From a phage: a stretch of 64,000 nt of DNA. The notes below the pieces were generated by a model that worked only from the letters and a program-made list of their open reading frames with translations, did no database searches and had not been told where the DNA came from. The stretch is taken from sequence record PZ386972.1; one strand, 5' to 3'. The position numbers were made by a program, and so were the translations under genes. Positions 6,061 to 63,081 of the stretch are shown here, in pieces (within the stretch, counting starts at the first letter, position 1; each line of letters begins with the position of its first letter).

Positions 6061-6828
6061 TTATTCAGCAGCCGCAGCTTTTGCATCCAGTTTAGCACGC
6101 TTAGCGGCACCATCATAGTCCTTAGCAACCAGACCACGACGAGACAGCATAGATTTAACACCGCGCTCAGATTTACCAGTTTTCTCAGCGATCTCAGCAA
6201 CAGTCATGTTAGCCAGATCCAGACCTTCTAACAGATCTTCACGAGTTTTAGCACTTGAGGTTTCCTGTACCGGCATAGCAGCGATACGACCTTCACGAAG
6301 CAGGCTCAGAGCTTTACCACGGATCTGCTTGATATTACGACCGAAGTGAGCAGCGATAGCTTCAATAGTAGCACCAGCAACAACCTGATTAACAAAATCA
6401 GTTTCTTCATCCGGAGTAAAGGAACGAACAGCAGCAGCTTTTTCAGTTGGTTTAACAGAAGCAGTCATTTCCAGACTCAGGATCTTACCCTGTACCTGTT
6501 TAGCACCGAACTGACCACCAGCTACAGCAGCAGCGATTTCAGCATAGGTATACTGACCAGCATGAGCGTTCAGGAAATCAACCAGTTCAGCTTCCTGCTC
6601 AGGAGTCCACGGGGATTTCTGTACTTCGTTAGCTTTCTGTACTTCAAAACCTTCTTTACGCAGTTTAGAGCCAACAGAGCGAGCAGTAACATCTTTGCCA
6701 GTTTCAGCAGCCAGTTCAGTAGCGATAGCAGCTACTTGTTCTTGAGAGATTACAGAAACACCCAGAGCAGTGGCTTTTGCTTTCAGAGACTCGGTTACAC
6801 CTTCTACGTTCCAGTTCAGTTTAGACAT
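6061..6828 (-). CDS. hypothetical Ala/Lys-rich protein with internal repeats (255 aa)
   Basis: ORF track; repeated GK(A/I)LSL segments; sits between ligase and helicase. Confidence 0.5.
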   Translation of the reverse strand: MSKLNWNVEGVTESLKAKATALGVSVISQEQVAAIATELAAETGKDVTARSVGSKLRKEGFEVQKANEVQKSPWTPEQEAELVDFLNAHAGQYTYAEIAAAVAGGQFGAKQVQGKILSLEMTASVKPTEKAAAVRSFTPDEETDFVNQVVAGATIEAIAAHFGRNIKQIRGKALSLLREGRIAAMPVQETSSAKTREDLLEGLDLANMTVAEIAEKTGKSERGVKSMLSRRGLVAKDYDGAAKRAKLDAKAAAAE

Positions 6829-9133: not shown

Positions 9134-9442
9134 CTAGGCATTCTTGGCTTTGAGTTCTTCAGCTCGTTTCTGTACTTCATGTAAAACCTCAGATTCGCTA
9201 AGAATCTGTGTAAACGCATAGAAAAGCTGTGATGTTGTTTCTAGGGTGTAAGGAAAAGAGAAGCCAGATTTCGTTGGAAACCATTCATCATTAATATCAA
9301 GAAGCCAGTAACGAATACCCATGTATAGATTCCCACGAAATTCAGATACTGTTAATCTTACTTGTTCCCCCTCCTTCTCCCAAAGTATGATGGACTGGTC
9401 ATCAACGTGTCCTTCATAGTTTTGATTTACCTGTTCGCTCAT
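9134..9442 (-). CDS. hypothetical protein (102 aa)
   Basis: ORF track. Confidence 0.5.
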   Translation of the reverse strand: MSEQVNQNYEGHVDDQSIILWEKEGEQVRLTVSEFRGNLYMGIRYWLLDINDEWFPTKSGFSFPYTLETTSQLFYAFTQILSESEVLHEVQKRAEELKAKNA

Positions 9443-9454
9443 TTACATATCCCA

Positions 9455-9482
9455 AATACACAAAAAGCCCCATATAGGGGCT
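9455..9482 (-). terminator. rho-independent terminator (minus strand)
   Basis: Hairpin GCCCCTATATGGGGC followed by TTTTTG on the minus strand. Confidence 0.5.
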
Positions 9483-9492
9483 AATTGGTTTC

Positions 9493-9789
9493 TTATCGGC
9501 CTACTGGAGAAGCACGATCTAACTCTGATTGGAGGCTAGTCACACGACGGACTTTCTCGACAGGAATAAAACGGAAGCTATCATTAGTACGAGAGAAGAC
9601 AAGGATTTCATCATCTTTCGCTTTACGAATACGTTCACGTTTAATACGCTCAGCCAGATATTTATCTTGGGCTGGATCAAATTCCATCGTACCCTGAAGG
9701 TACGTGGTTCCTTTCTGACGAAGTTTCTCGTAATGAAGATAAAACTCACCAAATTTTTCACATTGTGCGATAATTTCAGCTTTGGTCAT
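9493..9789 (-). CDS. hypothetical protein (98 aa)
   Basis: ORF track. Confidence 0.5.
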   Translation of the reverse strand: MTKAEIIAQCEKFGEFYLHYEKLRQKGTTYLQGTMEFDPAQDKYLAERIKRERIRKAKDDEILVFSRTNDSFRFIPVEKVRRVTSLQSELDRASPVGR

Positions 9790-9825
9790 AACTGTGTTCC
9801 TTTTGTTGGTGGATTTATCTAAAAA

Positions 9826-10236
9826 TTACTTAGTGATAGCTCGGATTGCTTCTGCCAGATGAGCAGCCGCTTTACCGGTCAGTTTGTCGATAATCGCATC
9901 ATCCAGAAAATCTGGTGCTAGGCCAGCATCAGAGAATGCTGAACGAAGATCGGCGTGAGCTTGGGCTTTGGAGGTACGAGAACCACCGGAAGCTTTTTCT
10001 CCAGTAGATGCGCTAGATTTAGAAGCAGAGCCAGCAGCTTTCTTGATATATACACCTGCTTTGGTCAGCTTCATACGAAAACCGTTCGGAGTTACACCAT
10101 TTTCCTGAGCAATTTCGCTAACAATTTCCATGCTAACACCCGGACGTTCATCCTCTGGGAATTGCTCCATACGAGCAATGTATTCGGAAGACATTTTTTC
10201 GAACAGTTCATCAGTCCACTGAGTTGGAGTAGTCAT
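9826..10236 (-). CDS. hypothetical protein (136 aa)
   Basis: ORF track. Confidence 0.5.
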   Translation of the reverse strand: MTTPTQWTDELFEKMSSEYIARMEQFPEDERPGVSMEIVSEIAQENGVTPNGFRMKLTKAGVYIKKAAGSASKSSASTGEKASGGSRTSKAQAHADLRSAFSDAGLAPDFLDDAIIDKLTGKAAAHLAEAIRAITK

Positions 10237-54808: not shown

Positions 54809-55388
54809 ATTCTGGTCAGACTTGCACCTAGACCACCCTGGAGCGTTACGTTTCCGTCCGTGGTTTAAGAACATGAAGGAGCACGATGAGTATATTCTAG
54901 ACACTTTGTCCAAGCATATTGGTAAACGAACAAAACTTATTTTGCTAGGGGATATTGCAGTAGGTCGTGAAGGTCTGGCCAAATTAAAGTCGGTTATCCA
55001 CAATGTTCCTAACCAACTTATAATGGGCAACCACGATGCGGAACGTCAAGGACTGAGTATTAGGGACTTAGCAGAAGTTTATGACGATATTCAGGCTCTA
55101 GGTAAACAGACTGGAGGCGGCAAAAAGTTTTGGCTATCTCACTGCCCTTTGCACCATAATGAACTTCGTGGCAAACTAAATATTCACGGACACGTACATA
55201 CTACTTCTCTACGTGATCCACGTTATATCAATGTCTCATTTGAAATGAGTAAAACTCCAATTCCACTAGAAGATATTGTGTCTGGTAAGTTTACTAGTTA
55301 TGATAGAGTAGTTAATTGTACTACCGGCGAGGTATTACAAATAGGGGAAGACGTAGCTGCTGTATTGCGTGGTGATATAAATGTCTGA
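54798..55388 (+). CDS. calcineurin-like metallophosphoesterase
   Basis: 196 aa; SDLHLDHP, LLGDIAVGREG, MGNHD, GHVH motifs. Confidence 0.6.
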   Translation: MKVKFWSDLHLDHPGALRFRPWFKNMKEHDEYILDTLSKHIGKRTKLILLGDIAVGREGLAKLKSVIHNVPNQLIMGNHDAERQGLSIRDLAEVYDDIQALGKQTGGGKKFWLSHCPLHHNELRGKLNIHGHVHTTSLRDPRYINVSFEMSKTPIPLEDIVSGKFTSYDRVVNCTTGEVLQIGEDVAAVLRGDINV

Positions 55389-60341: not shown

Positions 60342-61073
60342 ATGAGTATTAGTGAGAATTTAAAGACTATTATTAAGCTGGCTAAGAATGCAGACGGCAA
60401 ATGTGTTTCTGAACTAACTCCTGATGAAGCTCATGCAGTAGCATTCTGTTCTGAGTTTCATCCCGCAGCTTATACAGAAGCTGGAATTGTTAAATATAAT
60501 AAAGAAGAAAAATTCGTAACTCTATCTCCTTCTTATATTGCAATGAGAAAGATCATCAATTCTGTTGGTGATAAGATTGTAGGGTTCAAGGCAGATTCAT
60601 ATCATGTCTTTGCAGATCAGGAACTTCCAGTATTTAAAGAAGGAAATGTTAGAGTTGCACTAGAATTATATCCCGAGGAAAAGTTCATTCCACCTAAACG
60701 TTGTGAATATGATCATCTTCCTAGACTCCAAAGAAAAGATACTGGATTCCCTTATACAAAAGATGAAGTGTTGCTAGGGATTGCTTCTACGATTGCGCAG
60801 GTTCATCTATGTCTCGAAAAGAACCTAGAGATGCCATTAATCTTACAGTCTGCACATAAAGCAATGTTAAATGACTGGGATCAATTCTTTAAGATTATAG
60901 GAGCTGTCGGATTAGCACGTTTACTTCCTGCATTTGAGAACTCTGAAGTATTTGGCGAAGGTTCTTTCGGAACTGTAGATTATGATGCGCTAAAATCCCC
61001 ACACTCCTATCTTGCAACTTTTCTCTTCATGGTCTCGAAGGGTATCGTTCTCAAATACAAGCGGAAGGAATAA
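60342..61073 (+). CDS. hypothetical protein (243 aa)
   Basis: ORF track; last plus-strand gene before the repeat region. Confidence 0.5.
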   Translation: MSISENLKTIIKLAKNADGKCVSELTPDEAHAVAFCSEFHPAAYTEAGIVKYNKEEKFVTLSPSYIAMRKIINSVGDKIVGFKADSYHVFADQELPVFKEGNVRVALELYPEEKFIPPKRCEYDHLPRLQRKDTGFPYTKDEVLLGIASTIAQVHLCLEKNLEMPLILQSAHKAMLNDWDQFFKIIGAVGLARLLPAFENSEVFGEGSFGTVDYDALKSPHSYLATFLFMVSKGIVLKYKRKE

Positions 61074-61090
61074 ACGTTAACAAAATCTTC

Positions 61091-61120
61091 TTGACAACTC
61101 ATTAAGGTACATGTTATAAT
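61091..61120 (+). promoter_or_regulatory. consensus sigma70-type promoter (TTGACA, 18 bp, TATAAT) pointing into the repeat region
   Basis: -35 at 61091-61096, -10 at 61115-61120; no plus-strand ORF downstream. Confidence 0.5.
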
Positions 61121-61156
61121 AATCTCATAGATTAAAAACAACTTCTGTTTTTAGCT

Positions 61157-61438
61157 CTAGGCAACAAGATTATTGCTATCCCAACTCGAAGAGTACACCA
61201 GAGCCCCTGGCGCTAGGATGTATTCTGCAGCAGTTTTCACGGGATTAGCATACAGATCTTGAACGCCTAGAGCAGCAGACTTACGAGATTGGGGGATCTT
61301 ATATTTAAAATAAAAGTAAAACTTTTGACCACATAATTTACATTCAAGATGATACACCTGTTGCCGCTCATCTGCTAGGATGGCACAACACTTTCCTAGA
61401 AACTCCAGAGTTCTCACGAAATAATCACGAGATACCAC
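61157..61438 (-). CDS. hypothetical protein (93 aa)
   Basis: ORF track only; no promoter or RBS support found. Confidence 0.3.
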   Translation of the reverse strand: MVSRDYFVRTLEFLGKCCAILADERQQVYHLECKLCGQKFYFYFKYKIPQSRKSAALGVQDLYANPVKTAAEYILAPGALVYSSSWDSNNLVA

Positions 61439-61446
61439 TCTTTCTA

Positions 61447-61518
61447 GGGCGGTTCTCCTAAGTTTCTAGGAACATATACTAGGCGGTTTAATACAGGGCG
61501 GTTATTGGGAGGGCGGTT
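61447..61518. repeat. four direct copies of GGGCGGTT
   Basis: Copies at 61447, 61482 (GGCGGTT), 61496 and 61511. Confidence 0.7.
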
Positions 61519-61636
61519 ATTTCTAGGAGACATTTTTTGAAAACACATTTCCAGAAATTACTGTCGGATTTGCACATTGTGTTTCTAGAAATTTATGGTC
61601 GGATTTGCACAATCGCCTAAGTTTTTAGGAACATAT
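61456..61636. repeat. 22-bp direct repeat CCTAAGTTT(C/T)TAGGAACATATA, two copies
   Basis: Copies at 61456-61477 and 61615-61636, one mismatch. Confidence 0.7.
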
Positions 61637-62161
61637 AATCTCTTGAAAATGGCAGCATTATTTCGGGCCGAAGGCCCATGATTGCCTGAGTTTTTAGAGC
61701 CACAAGAATTTTCACTTGTCAAGCTATTTTGCCCCATTTTGCTAATAAAATTTTACTTTATCTGCACTTATCTCAAATTAACCCAAATCTTCTCAACTCT
61801 TCTCCAAAATCCCCGCAAATCAGGTGCTCCGCACCAAACATGCGCCCCTCCCGCAGTTCCCCCAAATTTCTCTCGCTCTCTCAACTTCTCCCCAAACTCA
61901 CACAATCACACACCCTCTAATCGAAGTCACAAAAATCTTGTCGGATTCGCACATCTTAATCCTAGAAAAACCATGTCGGATTTGCACATACCCCACAGGA
62001 TTCGAACGCAGTTCGTGATTGCTGGAGTTTTTAGGAAAATTCATTGTCGGATTTGCACACTATAAAAATTTTTCGGGTCGGATTTGCACACTACCAAAAA
62101 TTGTCGGATTTGCACATACACGCCCCCGCGTAATCCATGGGGGCAAATGTCGGTTTTGCAC
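61563..62161. repeat. eight direct copies of the 15-mer TGTCGGATTTGCACA, irregularly spaced
   Basis: Copies at 61563, 61597, 61939, 61974, 62044, 62075, 62101 and 62147; variants GGTCGG, GATTCG, GGTTTTG. Confidence 0.8.
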
Positions 62162-62167
62162 AAAAGC

Positions 62168-62185
62168 GCAGGGCAATTGCCCTGC
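62168..62185. repeat. perfect 18-bp palindrome GCAGGGCAATTGCCCTGC
   Basis: Self-complementary sequence read directly. Confidence 0.8.
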
Positions 62186-62191
62186 CCACCT

Positions 62192-62345
62192 GAATGCAAA
62201 TAAAAATGAGAATCGTTTGCATTTAAAAAGTGAAATGAGAATGATAATGATTCGCATTTAGAAAGTGAAATGATTCTCATTTAGAAAGTGGAATGATTCT
62301 CATTTAGATAGTGAAATACAAATGATAATGATTCGCATTTAAGAA
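62192..62345. repeat. array of AATGAGAAT / ATTCTCATT and AATGATAATGATT (Fur-box-like) palindromic repeats
   Basis: AATGATAATGATTCGCATTT twice (62242, 62320); GAAATGATTCTCATTTAGA twice; inverted partner AATGAGAATCG at 62205. Confidence 0.7.
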
Positions 62346-62372
62346 CGGAAGTGAGAAACACTATTATTTAAG

Positions 62373-62381
62373 TTATCCACA
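62373..62381. promoter_or_regulatory. perfect DnaA box TTATCCACA
   Basis: Exact 9-mer match. Confidence 0.6.
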
Positions 62382-62445
62382 GACTTATTAACAGCACGAT
62401 TTGACTTGACAGAATCCTAGCCATTTTGAGGCGTTATTAACAGAC

Positions 62446-62454
62446 TTATCCACA
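62446..62454. promoter_or_regulatory. perfect DnaA box TTATCCACA (second copy, 73 bp from the first)
   Basis: Exact 9-mer match within repeated CAGACTTAT context. Confidence 0.6.
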
Positions 62455-62462
62455 GCTTATCC

Positions 62463-62482
62463 TACTGTATAAATATACAGTA
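62463..62482. promoter_or_regulatory. LexA (SOS) box-like palindrome TACTGTATAAATATACAGTA
   Basis: Matches CTGT-N8-ACAG with AT-rich core. Confidence 0.55.
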
Positions 62483-62847
62483 TTCCTACGCAGTGAATAA
62501 TTCTAATATAGCGTTAAAACGTCCTAGATCGCATTCTAACGCGTTTAATTTTGGTGGGGATACTAAAACAAGGGCAAAATTGGAGGAGGCTTGAAAATTA
62601 GTTAGCTCGCTAACGATCACACAAGGCGACACGTAACATCCTAATCATTAGCAGGCTAACCATCGCGGGCGCGGTCAAATAAGAATGATTCTCATTTGAG
62701 AATTGGGGCACTTCCTGATAGTTGCGCCCCGTGATTATTACAGTAGTGGGCAACCGTTACGCTTTGCCCATTCCCGCCACTCATCTTGATGTCTAGACTT
62801 GCGACGGCGTACTAAAAACCGTTTATACCAGTGATTAAACCATCGTT

Positions 62848-63081
62848 TCATAAATCCTCCTCCGGTAGTCGATGCGTGATTTTTTCCTCCTCCCCATAGG
62901 AATCCGCCAAATGCTGATAATAACCCTCGTGATCATAAATCACTTTATCATACTCGCCACGCTCGACCGCTTGCCGATTCTCTGGCGTATCGGGCACGTA
63001 AAAAACGTCTACCATCGTAGTAGTTTTGGTCACAATAATTTTATTGCTCATAGTAACTCCTAGTAAATATATTTTTGCCAA
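62848..63081 (-). CDS. hypothetical protein (77 aa)
   Basis: ORF track; GGAGG RBS on the minus strand upstream of ATG. Confidence 0.4.
   Translation of the reverse strand: MAKIYLLGVTMSNKIIVTKTTTMVDVFYVPDTPENRQAVERGEYDKVIYDHEGYYQHLADSYGEEEKITHRLPEEDL

What the first reader, a model, noticed from the sequence alone, without database searches (positions are those of the whole stretch)
62370..62485. Two perfect DnaA boxes and a LexA box within 110 bp
TTATCCACA occurs exactly twice (62373, 62446), each inside a CAGACTTAT direct repeat, followed by TACTGTATAAATATACAGTA, a near-perfect SOS box. Host replication-initiator and SOS-repressor sites clustered in a phage non-coding region suggest host-protein-mediated control of DNA entry, replication or early transcription.
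Basis: seen in the sequence. Interest (0 to 1): 0.6.

Follow-up and report, generated by a model that had tools for sequence, protein, structure and literature searches.

The report
T5 injection-stop DnaA–LexA site cluster
This is the already-described DnaA-box module of the "injection stop" region of a T5-like phage; it also carries a near-perfect, deeply conserved binding site for the host SOS repressor LexA that the literature I could search never mentions, which gives a concrete handle on the old puzzle of T5's two-step DNA injection.

Summary
Window 62373-62482 holds two perfect DnaA boxes, each paired 3 bp from a one-mismatch box, a TTATCC half-box, and TACTGTATAAATATACAGTA. That last site scores 25.5 bits on a LexA matrix, above every E. 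coli SOS box used to build it. The window is a T5-like phage (Tequintavirus) in reverse orientation. The finding is the IRC'-spacer-IRD' module of the "injection stop signal" (iss) region inside the terminal repeat. Its DnaA boxes were published in 1987 and analysed across 25 phages by Davison (2020), who proposed that membrane-bound DnaA halts DNA entry; nobody has tested this. The LexA-like palindrome appears not to have been reported as such: no LexA or SOS mention in that paper or in four other literature searches. It sits at an identical offset in 45 of 45 module copies located without using it, in both inverted copies that bracket a pre-early operon, and next to DnaA boxes even in Vibrio phages of another subfamily whose flanks no longer align. 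I conclude it is a conserved docking site for host DnaA and LexA at the boundary between first- and second-step DNA. Its function (anchor, stop or insulator) is inferred. Replication and classical SOS promoter control are poorly supported.

The parts
61772..62865 (-). Homolog of the T5 region annotated as 'injection stop signal' (Repeat Region 3). It is a large non-coding stretch between convergent early genes (+ strand, ending 61073) and pre-early genes (- strand, ending 62848).
   Evidence: The ends of the T5 st0 AY692264 misc_feature 9140-10144 map to window 62865 and 61772. Relatives show no credible CDS there.
62349..62372 (+). Outer arm of IRC' (AAGTGAGAAACACTATTATTTAAG), conserved in both inverted copies.
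   Evidence: Gapless alignment of 40 unique module copies; mean majority fraction 0.86.
62373..62381 (+). DnaA box 1, TTATCCACA (perfect consensus).
   Evidence: TTATCCACA is present at this position in 30 of 40 unique copies.
62385..62393 (+). DnaA* box 2, TTATTAACA (one mismatch to TTATNCACA), 3 bp after box 1 and head-to-tail with it.
   Evidence: Relatives have TTATTAACA, TTATCAACA or TTATCCACA here. This matches the paired-box rule in Davison 2020.
62394..62433 (+). Spacer carrying the conserved GCACGATTTGACTTGACA motif. GCACGATT persists even in the Vibrio phage versions.
   Evidence: No IHF consensus. No convincing -10 element downstream of TTGACA (read directly from the sequence).
62434..62442 (+). 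DnaA* box 3, TTATTAACA.
62446..62454 (+). DnaA box 4, TTATCCACA (perfect). It starts 73 bp, about 7 helical turns, after box 1.
   Evidence: This is among the most conserved blocks (0.94) and is retained in Vibrio phages.
62457..62465 (+). TTATCC half-box (TTATCCTAC), 11 bp in phase after box 4 and overlapping the first 3 bp of the LexA-like site. It may be a low-affinity DnaA site.
   Evidence: TTAT(C/T/A)C is present in 40 of 40 unique copies. DnaA binding here is an inference.
62463..62482 (.). LexA-operator-like palindrome TACTGTATAAATATACAGTA (9+2+9). It is the outer end of IRD' and probably the 'palD' of the T5 literature (not verified).
   Evidence: 25.5 bits. Present at a fixed offset in 45 of 45 copies located without using it. 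Present in both inverted copies and in Sugarlandvirus, My1-type, Pogseptimavirus and Thalassavirus phages.
62201..62354 (+). AT-rich tract (27% GC) of 23-nt repeats (AATGATTCTCATTTAGAAAGTGA and variants, the T5 'DRE' region) abutting the module. It contains Fur-box-like 7-1-7 palindromes.
   Evidence: (families D1, D3).
62168..62185 (-). GC-rich palindrome GCAGGGCAATTGCCCTGC followed by a T-run. It is homologous to the site of T5's major 7.9% single-strand interruption.
   Evidence: Terminator-like hit. The T5 st0 nick at 9748/9749 maps to window ~62165.
61562..62165 (+). Eight DRD-type repeats TGTCGGATTTGCACA, each an 8/9 match to the DnaA box consensus (62154 TTTTGCACA is a full match).
   Evidence: (family D2).

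Best explanation
The finding is the IRC'-spacer-IRD' module, read here in reverse complement, of the T5-type injection-stop (iss) region. It lies about 700 bp inside the terminal repeat of a Tequintavirus. It is a cis-acting protein-docking module: two head-to-tail pairs of DnaA boxes, a phased TTATCC half-box, and a near-consensus LexA operator capping the end that faces the pre-early operon. A second, inverted copy lies 2-4 kb further into the repeat, beyond this window's end, so the layout is DnaA x4 - LexA - [variable pre-early operon] - LexA - DnaA x4. Proposed mechanism: this is the last DNA to enter during first-step transfer. Once in the cytoplasm it is loaded by host DnaA, which oligomerises along the phased boxes and is partly membrane-associated, and by a LexA dimer. 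The resulting nucleoprotein complex marks or anchors the boundary between first- and second-step DNA. It thereby contributes to the pause in DNA transfer, or to insulating and organising the first-step DNA, until phage proteins A1 and A2 resolve it. Shown here: the identity of the element, the motifs, their geometry, and strong purifying conservation of the DnaA-LexA composite. Inferred: that DnaA and LexA actually bind (I estimate about 0.75-0.8 for each, from site quality). Also inferred: that the complex acts in transfer control or anchoring (about 0.35-0.4).
For: Identity: the best hits are T5-like phages at 90-95% identity, with the match lying 9-10.8 kb from the left end inside annotated LTRs. 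It maps inside T5's annotated 'injection stop signal' and about 200 bp from the homolog of the 7.9% nick. Known element: the paired DnaA boxes separated by 3 bp are described for 25 T5-like phages. Site quality: LexA matrix score 25.5 bits, above all training sites. Conservation without ascertainment bias: 45 of 45 copies located with the DnaA/spacer part alone carry a LexA-like site at the same offset (minimum 17.2, median 25.5 bits). The second copy is only 72-79% identical overall yet keeps the 16-nt core. The block from box 4 through GCTTATCC to the LexA site is the best-conserved part of the module (0.92-0.94, against 0.74 for the spacer and 0.68 for the flank, a LexA-anchored set). Variants seen (CTGG, CCAG, and the AAA/TTT centre flip, which gives the reverse complement) are those tolerated in natural SOS boxes and expected for a symmetric dimer site (my own knowledge of SOS boxes). 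Depth: between the window and Vibrio phage SJ1, only the DnaA pair plus LexA box aligns. Thalassavirus Brizo, in another subfamily, has TTATCCACA-ACC-TTATCCACC-7 nt-TACTGTATAAATATACAGTG at 24.5 bits. Specificity: no site of 18 bits or more occurs in the ~85 unrelated loci. The exact palindrome recurs in at least 120 mostly non-T5 viral contigs, as expected for a general host operator. The pairing with DnaA boxes is restricted to T5-likes, since 84 of 86 other occurrences lack it.
Against: There are no binding data for DnaA or LexA on this DNA, and the literature states that functional studies are lacking. LexA is cytoplasmic, and there is no obvious way that a protein bound inside the cell would stop DNA entry. 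T5-type phages are commonly observed to grow on recA cloning strains (my own knowledge, not checked here), so LexA cleavage cannot be required for second-step transfer. In the two Vibrio phages the second, inverted DnaA cluster has no LexA-like site of 14 bits or more, so two LexA sites are not universal. The LexA matrix was built from sites recalled from memory. [quoted passage not shown]
Confidence: 0.6

Rival explanations
1. Classical SOS operator. LexA represses a promoter overlapping the palindrome, for example an antisense or non-coding transcript at copy 1, or a promoter reading toward A2/A1 at copy 2. Transcription in the first-step region would then respond to host DNA damage, or to the damage signal generated when A1 degrades host DNA.
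For: Promoter-like TATACA-16-AATAAT lies at 62474-62501 (+), with its -35 element inside the box, and recurs in 16 of 28 unique copy-1-type sequences. At copy 2 of the closest relative, TTAACA-16-TATATT has its -10 element inside the box and points through the DnaA boxes toward A2/A1; this recurs in 6 of 12 copy-2-type sequences. In unrelated viral contigs the same palindrome can sit just upstream of a gene start (example L197).
Against: The matches are weak (9-10 of 12 positions), present in only about half of the sequences, and on different strands and directions relative to the module in the two copy types, whereas the box itself is near-invariant. T5's curated promoters (P-D/E20, P-H22 and two putative ones) overlap neither copy. 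No credible ORF follows the copy-1 site. No Rfam family matches.
Confidence: 0.15
2. The palindrome is recognised by a phage protein and its resemblance to a LexA box is incidental. Candidates are the dimeric DNA-binding protein A2, or an A1/A2 nuclease that cuts or processes first-step DNA, as Davison suggested for PalD-PalJ.
For: A2 is a DNA-binding dimer required for second-step transfer, and palindromes in this region were proposed as A1/A2 cleavage sites. A symmetric site with a freely flipping centre fits any dimeric binder.
Against: A 19/20 match to the host operator consensus, with flanking TA..TA and an AT-rich centre, is unlikely by coincidence, and the observed variants follow LexA's tolerance pattern. 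The same 20-mer is common in unrelated (pro)phage contigs that lack A1/A2. A2 and the neighbouring ORFs show no recognisable DNA-binding or LexA-like domain. That result is uninformative rather than negative.
Confidence: 0.12
3. Origin-like or titration element. The DnaA boxes, the adjacent AT-rich repeats and the iteron-like DRD repeats form an auxiliary replication origin or a datA-like sink that sequesters DnaA (and LexA) to disturb host replication or SOS control.
For: The architecture resembles plasmid or oriC origins: phased head-to-tail DnaA boxes, an abutting 27% GC repeat tract, and eight DRD repeats that each match a DnaA box at 8 of 9 positions.
Against: T5 origins were mapped near the genome centre and the replication genes are absent at the first-step stage (Davison 2020). 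Host DNA is degraded within minutes, so titrating host regulators has little to act on. There are only 2-4 LexA sites per genome. No IHF consensus is present, unlike datA, DARS2 and oriC.
Confidence: 0.08
4. Structural DNA element only. Repeats and palindromes form a cruciform or knot that physically blocks passage through the tail or channel, with no host protein involved.
For: The classical literature view holds that secondary structures in the iss may block transfer. The site is a 9+2+9 palindrome.
Against: The strand folds no better than shuffles (z = -1.0). In copy 2 the palindrome arms shrink to 7 bp while the LexA core is kept. Conservation follows base identity (CTG/CAG, TTATCCACA) rather than mere complementarity, and no compensatory arm changes are seen.
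Confidence: 0.05

Closest known systems
IRD'-spacer-IRC' element of bacteriophage T5 Repeat Region 3 / injection stop signal (Heusterspreute 1987; Wang 2005; Davison 2015 and 2020)
   Same: Same genomic position (inner part of the terminal repeat, between the pre-early operon and the early genes), same 131-bp architecture, same DnaA/DnaA* pairs separated by 3 bp, and an inverted partner in Repeat Region 2. It is 87-99% identical to other Tequintavirus and Epseptimavirus copies.
   Different: Nothing structural differs; this is an ortholog. What is added here is the reading of the outer 20 bp of IRD/IRD' as a near-consensus LexA operator, which the 2020 paper does not mention (0 hits for LexA or SOS). 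It treats the palindromes only as possible A1/A2 cleavage sites.
E. coli-type SOS boxes (LexA operators) in temperate phages and plasmids, e.g. coliphage 186 tum, Gifsy antirepressor gfoA, colicin operons
   Same: The same 20-bp CTGT-N8-ACAG palindrome at consensus strength. The identical 20-mer is frequent in other viral contigs. A LexA box upstream of gfoA is mentioned.
   Different: Those operators overlap the promoter of a specific SOS-induced gene in elements that sense host damage. Here the host is a strictly lytic phage that destroys host DNA, the site is in a 1.7-kb non-coding region without a consistent promoter, it is duplicated in inverted repeats, and it is fused to DnaA boxes.
Chromosomal DnaA-box clusters: oriC DnaA-oligomerisation regions, datA, DARS1/2
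   Same: High-affinity TTATCCACA boxes nucleate phased (11-12 bp) same-orientation weaker boxes, next to AT-rich DNA. Davison makes the same comparison.
   Different: No IHF site. No evidence of initiation or DnaA-nucleotide cycling. The location is on DNA that enters the cell before any replication genes. A LexA operator overlaps the last phased half-box.
DnaA/DnaA-box transcription roadblocks (asnC, mioC; Schaefer and Messer, recalled from memory) and the E. coli uvrB control region, which holds both a LexA box and a DnaA box
   Same: DnaA and LexA sites lie close together and can block RNA polymerase. Here the module lies downstream of the rightward pre-early operon, upstream of a terminator-like hairpin at 62168-62185.
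   Different: The second copy lies between divergent promoters where no transcript is expected to cross. A roadblock function has not been tested.

Membership tests
T5-type iss module (IRD'-spacer-IRC') | Located in the large untranslated repeat region at the inner end of the terminal repeat of a T5-like (Demerecviridae) genome. | tested here: met
   Megablast hits lie 9-10.8 kb from the left end, inside annotated LTRs. The finding maps inside the T5 'injection stop signal' feature, and the LTR inner end maps to window ~61697.
T5-type iss module (IRD'-spacer-IRC') | Two pairs of DnaA/DnaA* boxes, each pair separated by 3 bp, at a fixed distance from each other. | tested here: met
   Boxes at 62373/62385 and 62434/62446. 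The alignment of 40 unique copies is gapless. The rule is stated.
T5-type iss module (IRD'-spacer-IRC') | An inverted partner copy (IRC-spacer-IRD) 2-4 kb further into the repeat. | not testable with these tools
   The expected position (~window 65,500-66,500) is beyond the window end. The partner is present in the closest relative (L127 11157-11290) and in 16 other loci.
T5-type iss module (IRD'-spacer-IRC') | Acts in cis to stop DNA transfer after about 8% of the genome. | not testable with these tools
   This has never been shown for the module itself, even in T5.
LexA operator (gammaproteobacterial SOS box) | 20-bp palindrome TACTG(TA)5CAGTA with a CTGT-N8-ACAG core, scoring within the range of verified boxes. 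| tested here: met
   19/20 match to the consensus; 25.5 bits against a training range of 12.2-23.7. The matrix was built from memory.
LexA operator (gammaproteobacterial SOS box) | Overlaps or abuts the promoter of a regulated transcription unit. | tested here: inconclusive
   Only weak promoter-like matches, in 16 of 28 and 6 of 12 sequences, with inconsistent direction. No annotated T5 promoter overlaps.
LexA operator (gammaproteobacterial SOS box) | Bound by LexA in vitro or in vivo and released on RecA-mediated cleavage. | not testable with these tools
   Requires EMSA, footprinting or ChIP.
LexA operator (gammaproteobacterial SOS box) | Evolutionary conservation consistent with selection for LexA specificity. 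| tested here: met
   Present in 45 of 45 copies located independently of it. Retained across subfamilies where the flanks do not align. The variants CTGG and CCAG are tolerated in natural SOS boxes.
DnaA-box cluster of the origin/datA/DARS type | Consensus 9-mers clustered with helical phasing in the same orientation. | tested here: met
   Four same-strand boxes in 82 bp with start-to-start spacings of 12, 49, 12 and 11 bp. The two perfect boxes are 73 bp apart.
DnaA-box cluster of the origin/datA/DARS type | An IHF binding site within the cluster. | tested here: not met
   No WATCAANNNNTTR match anywhere between 44,627 and 64,000.
DnaA-box cluster of the origin/datA/DARS type | Supports DnaA-dependent initiation, or DnaA-ATP hydrolysis or regeneration. 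| not testable with these tools
   The literature places T5 origins elsewhere.

The most novel reading that the evidence does not exclude
The near-consensus LexA operator fused to the DnaA-box array is a functional, previously unrecognised component of the T5-family injection-stop and second-step-transfer control. Host LexA, together with DnaA, would clamp both inverted modules of the first-step DNA. The occupancy or removal of this complex, by A1/A2 or through the DNA-damage signal created when A1 degrades the host chromosome, would gate the handling of the remaining 92% of the genome. A strictly lytic phage would then be using the SOS repressor as a structural or checkpoint factor rather than as a transcriptional switch.
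Probability: 0.2. Interest if true: 0.8.

Novelty: new member of a known kind. Interest (0 to 1): 0.5.

Why it matters
Why T5 DNA entry stops at about 8% and how it restarts has been open for roughly sixty years. The only concrete molecular proposal, membrane-bound DnaA binding the iss DnaA boxes, is untested. This analysis shows that the most conserved core of the candidate stop module is a composite of DnaA boxes and a consensus-strength LexA operator, kept across several genera and two subfamilies of Demerecviridae. That adds a second, non-essential and genetically tractable host factor. lexA(Def), lexA(Ind-) and recA hosts all exist, whereas dnaA is essential. It also identifies a 20-bp target for clean phage point mutants. 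If LexA proves irrelevant, the result still narrows the functional core of a 1.2-kb repeat maze to about 50 bp.

Tried and rejected
(1) I anchored relatives on the flanking 243-aa early protein, which gave only three near-identical loci. I switched to the DRD repeat and to the INPHARED phage collection. (2) My first conservation table was anchored on the LexA matrix itself and was therefore circular. I redid it with copies located from the DnaA/spacer part only. (3) Known RNA families: nothing significant in 61000-63000 (best E-value 0.58). (4) Strand folding of the module is not different from shuffles. (5) IHF consensus: absent. (6) Pfam scan of A2 and five neighbouring ORFs for LexA-like or HTH domains found no families. 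(7) The third TTATCCACA (54994) and the second-best LexA-like site (2000) both lie inside long ORFs and were dismissed as chance. (8) A promoter in the spacer (TTGACTTGACA) was rejected because no acceptable -10 lies at 16-18 bp in any lineage (read). (9) Literature: the searches 'phage T5'+LexA+'first step transfer', 'bacteriophage T5'+LexA, 'T5-like'+'SOS box', LexA+Tequintavirus and 'T5 infection'+'SOS response' returned nothing linking LexA to T5-like phages. The Davison 2015 review, Heusterspreute 1987 and Wang 2005 are not held in the library, so a prior mention there cannot be excluded. (10) The idea that LexA cleavage is the trigger for second-step transfer was rejected as an obligatory mechanism, because T5-type phages grow on recA strains (my own knowledge, not verified here).

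Full report
1. WHAT IS IN THE SEQUENCE

One search shows, on the + strand: 62349 AAGTGAGAAACACTATTATTTAAG; 62373 TTATCCACA; GAC; 62385 TTATTAACA; a 40-bp spacer (GCACGATTTGACTTGACAGAATCCTAGCCATTTTGAGGCG); 62434 TTATTAACA; GAC; 62446 TTATCCACA; GC; 62457 TTATCC; and 62463 TACTGTATAAATATACAGTA 62482.

- TTATCCACA occurs three times in the window. The third, at 54994, is inside an ORF.
- The boxes overlap CAGACTTAT rather than sitting inside it. The true repeat is the 24-nt box-GAC-box unit (family D9).

Relaxed DnaA boxes are not enriched window-wide (90 found against 81 expected), but four same-strand sites fall within 82 bp here.

I scored the palindrome with a LexA weight matrix built from 19 E. 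coli SOS boxes. I recalled those boxes from memory, so the matrix is approximate. The palindrome scores 25.5 bits. For comparison:
- the ideal consensus scores 27.1;
- the best training site scores 23.7;
- the next-best site in the window scores 16.6, and lies inside an 855-aa ORF;
- the best site in 30 shuffles scores 18.0.

2. WHAT GENOME AND WHAT REGION

The 1.6 kb around the finding matches 457 phage records. The best are Tequintavirus and Epseptimavirus phages at 90-95% identity. The match lies 9-10.8 kb from the left end, on the opposite strand, within annotated left terminal repeats. The window is therefore a T5-like genome read in reverse complement.

- The ends of the T5 st0 feature "injection stop signal" (9140-10144) map to window 62865 and 61772.
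- T5's major 7.9% nick maps to about 62165, next to the GC palindrome at 62168-62185.
- The inner end of the terminal repeat in phage MM-1 maps to about 61697.

The 1.7-kb stretch from 61100 to 62850 is non-coding and lies between convergent early (+) and pre-early (-) genes.

3. WHAT IS ALREADY KNOWN

Davison (bioRxiv 10.1101/866236) describes this element as IRD'-spacer-IRC' of Repeat Region 3.
- It is 131 bp long, with pairs of DnaA/DnaA* boxes separated by 3 bp.
- It is conserved in 25 T5-like phages.
- It has an inverted partner (IRC-spacer-IRD) in Repeat Region 2.
- The first DnaA box was noted in 1987.

Davison proposes that membrane-bound DnaA binds these boxes and stops DNA entry, and that A1/A2 then cut the DNA at one of the palindromes. 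Later papers say that experimental tests are lacking. The DnaA half of the finding is therefore an ortholog of a published element.

4. WHAT APPEARS NOT TO BE KNOWN

The 2020 paper contains no occurrence of "LexA" or "SOS" and treats PalD and the other palindromes only as possible cleavage sites. Five full-text searches found nothing linking LexA to T5-like phages (contexts checked). T5's depositors annotated no such site. The 1987, 2005 and 2015 papers are not held in the library, so a prior mention there cannot be excluded.

5. CONSERVATION

I fetched relatives through the DRD repeat, which is independent of the motifs, and located module copies by BLAST. To avoid circularity I then located copies using only window 62349-62456, which excludes the palindrome.
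- All 45 copies with downstream sequence carry a LexA-like site at the identical offset.
- The minimum score is 17.2 bits, the median 25.5, and 44 of 45 reach 18 bits or more.
- This includes the second, inverted copies, which are only 72-79% identical over the DnaA/spacer part.

In a gapless alignment of 40 unique copies:
- CTG and CAG are invariant.
- The variants that occur (CTGG, CCAG, T1 to C) are ones found in natural SOS boxes.
- The centre flips between AAA and TTT. That gives the reverse complement of the same site, as expected for a symmetric dimer.
- The block from box 4 through GCTTATCC to the LexA site is the best-conserved part (0.92-0.94, against 0.74 for the spacer and 0.68 for the outer flank).

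Beyond the close relatives, the site is present in:
- Klebsiella Sugarlandvirus, with two copies at 23.6 and 25.5 bits;
- the 122,024-bp contig, which I take to be Pectobacterium phage My1 from its length alone (23.8 and 25.2 bits);
- Vibrio Pogseptimavirus SJ1 (22.8 bits);
- Vibrio Thalassavirus Brizo, of subfamily Ermolyevavirinae (24.5 bits).

Between the window and SJ1 only the DnaA pair plus LexA box aligns. In Brizo the flanks do not align, yet TTATCCACA-ACC-TTATCCACC sits 7 nt upstream of the box, and a further TTATCCACA is fused to a degenerate copy of the palindrome.

Controls:
- No site of 18 bits or more occurs in the roughly 85 unrelated loci fetched by chance.
- The exact 20-mer occurs in at least 120 IMG/VR stretches, mostly 30-50 kb non-T5 contigs. 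By my estimate from the pattern's probability, chance would give only a handful. It therefore behaves as a general host operator.
- Only the T5-likes pair it with DnaA boxes. Of 86 other occurrences, 84 lack them, and the two exceptions are a misclassified T5-like contig and a coincidence inside a gene.

6. ANATOMY OF THE WHOLE SYSTEM

In the closest relative (L127, shown in window orientation) the order is:
1. early genes;
2. Repeat Region 3, with DRD repeats, the nick palindrome, AT-rich DRE repeats, DnaA x4 and then LexA;
3. the rightward pre-early operon on the - strand;
4. LexA, then DnaA x4 in inverted orientation;
5. A2 and A1.

The two LexA sites are therefore the operon-proximal ends of a pair of inverted modules that bracket a gene cassette known to be hypervariable. 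The second module lies beyond the end of this window.

All four boxes are head-to-tail. Boxes 3, 4 and the TTATCC half-box are spaced 12 and 11 bp apart, and the two perfect boxes are 73 bp (about 7 turns) apart. The half-box overlaps the LexA site by 3 bp, so DnaA filament extension and LexA binding could either compete or cooperate. That is an inference.

7. MECHANISM

Best-supported reading: the module is a docking site for host DnaA and LexA on the last DNA to enter in the first step, forming a nucleoprotein complex at the boundary between first- and second-step DNA.
- That the two host proteins bind is inferred from site strength and from conservation. I estimate about 0.75-0.8.
- That the complex contributes to the pause, or to anchoring or insulating the first-step DNA until A1/A2 act, is more speculative. 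I estimate about 0.35-0.4.
- I do not think LexA cleavage can be an obligatory trigger, because T5-type phages grow on recA hosts (my own knowledge, not verified here).

Rivals:
- Classical SOS-regulated promoter. Promoter-like matches overlap the box in only 16 of 28 and 6 of 12 sequences, are weak, and point in opposite directions relative to the module in the two copy types. T5's annotated promoters do not overlap either copy.
- Site for a phage protein (A2 or A1/A2). This is possible, but the 19/20 match to the host consensus and the motif's wide occurrence elsewhere argue against it. Pfam gives no information on A2.
- Origin or titration element. The architecture is origin-like, but T5 origins map elsewhere, no IHF site is present, and host DNA is destroyed early.
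- Pure DNA structure. Folding is no better than shuffles, and conservation is of base identity rather than pairing.

8. VERDICT

The DnaA-box cluster is a new member of a known, named element. The interpretation as host-mediated control of DNA entry coincides with a published, untested hypothesis. Replication and early transcription are poorly supported.

The part with real value is the LexA operator. It is consensus-strength, fixed in register with the DnaA array, duplicated in the inverted partner, conserved across several genera and two subfamilies, and absent from the accessible literature. It makes the two-step-injection question more testable, because lexA and recA mutants are viable.

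Interest is 0.5. Novelty is "new member of a known kind". A 0.2-probability reading, in which LexA is a structural or checkpoint factor of a lytic phage's DNA entry, would be of high interest if true.

Noticed in passing
window 62201-62354 and 62677-62706: The AT-rich 23-nt repeats contain 7-1-7 palindromes (TGAGAATGATTCTCA, TGATAATGATTCGCA) that resemble the Fur box tGATAATnATTATCa. Two sites have 2 mismatches (62242, 62323), and 5 of the 18 window matches with 3 or fewer mismatches cluster within 460 bp. T5's receptor FhuA is Fur-regulated. The iss region may hold sites for more host DNA-binding proteins than DnaA and LexA.
   Followed up: partly
window 61562-62165: Eight DRD-type repeats TGTCGGATTTGCACA each contain (A)TTTGCACA, an 8/9 match to the DnaA box consensus TTWTNCACA. 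The copy at 62154 (TTTTGCACA) is a full match. They could be an array of low-affinity DnaA sites extending the module.
   Followed up: partly
window 62168-62185 (- strand): The GC-rich palindrome GCAGGGCAATTGCCCTGC plus a T-run scores as an intrinsic terminator for the pre-early operon strand. It is homologous to the exact site of T5's major 7.9% single-strand interruption (nick after ...CCCTGCGC), which coincides with the terminal-repeat end in the T5 st0 record.
   Followed up: partly
window 61091-61120 (+ strand): A perfect sigma-70 consensus promoter (TTGACA-18 nt-TATAAT with upstream TG, 12/12) lies just after the last early ORF (which ends at 61073). It points into the non-coding repeat region, where no + strand ORF follows. 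Its transcript and purpose are unknown.
   Followed up: no
window 61700-62000: A roughly 300-bp strongly C-rich, G-poor tract (GC skew down to -0.70; CCCCAAATTTCTCTCGCTCTCTCAACTTCTCCCC...) lies between the two groups of DRD repeats, close to the predicted inner boundary of the terminal repeat at ~61697.
   Followed up: no
window 62396-62411 (spacer of the module): The motif GCACGATT(TGACTTGACA) is conserved in the copy-1-type modules, and its GCACGATT core persists in the otherwise unalignable Vibrio phage versions; most copy-2-type spacers instead read GCACAAAA. It has no matching -10 element, which suggests a further unidentified factor-binding site.
   Followed up: partly
L127 7124 and 11157; L128 (T5) record 6211-6230 and 9409-9428; other loci: The two inverted DnaA-LexA modules bracket the rightward pre-early operon, whose gene content is hypervariable among T5-like phages. 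Inverted repeats flanking a variable cassette might also promote recombination, cassette exchange or inversion.
   Followed up: no
L242 (Vibrio phage Brizo) 5973-6000: A DnaA box is fused directly to a degenerate LexA-like palindrome (TTATCCACAACTGTATATTTATACATCG, 15.6 bits), 50 bp upstream of the intact DnaA-pair/LexA unit. This looks like a decayed tandem duplicate of the composite.
   Followed up: no
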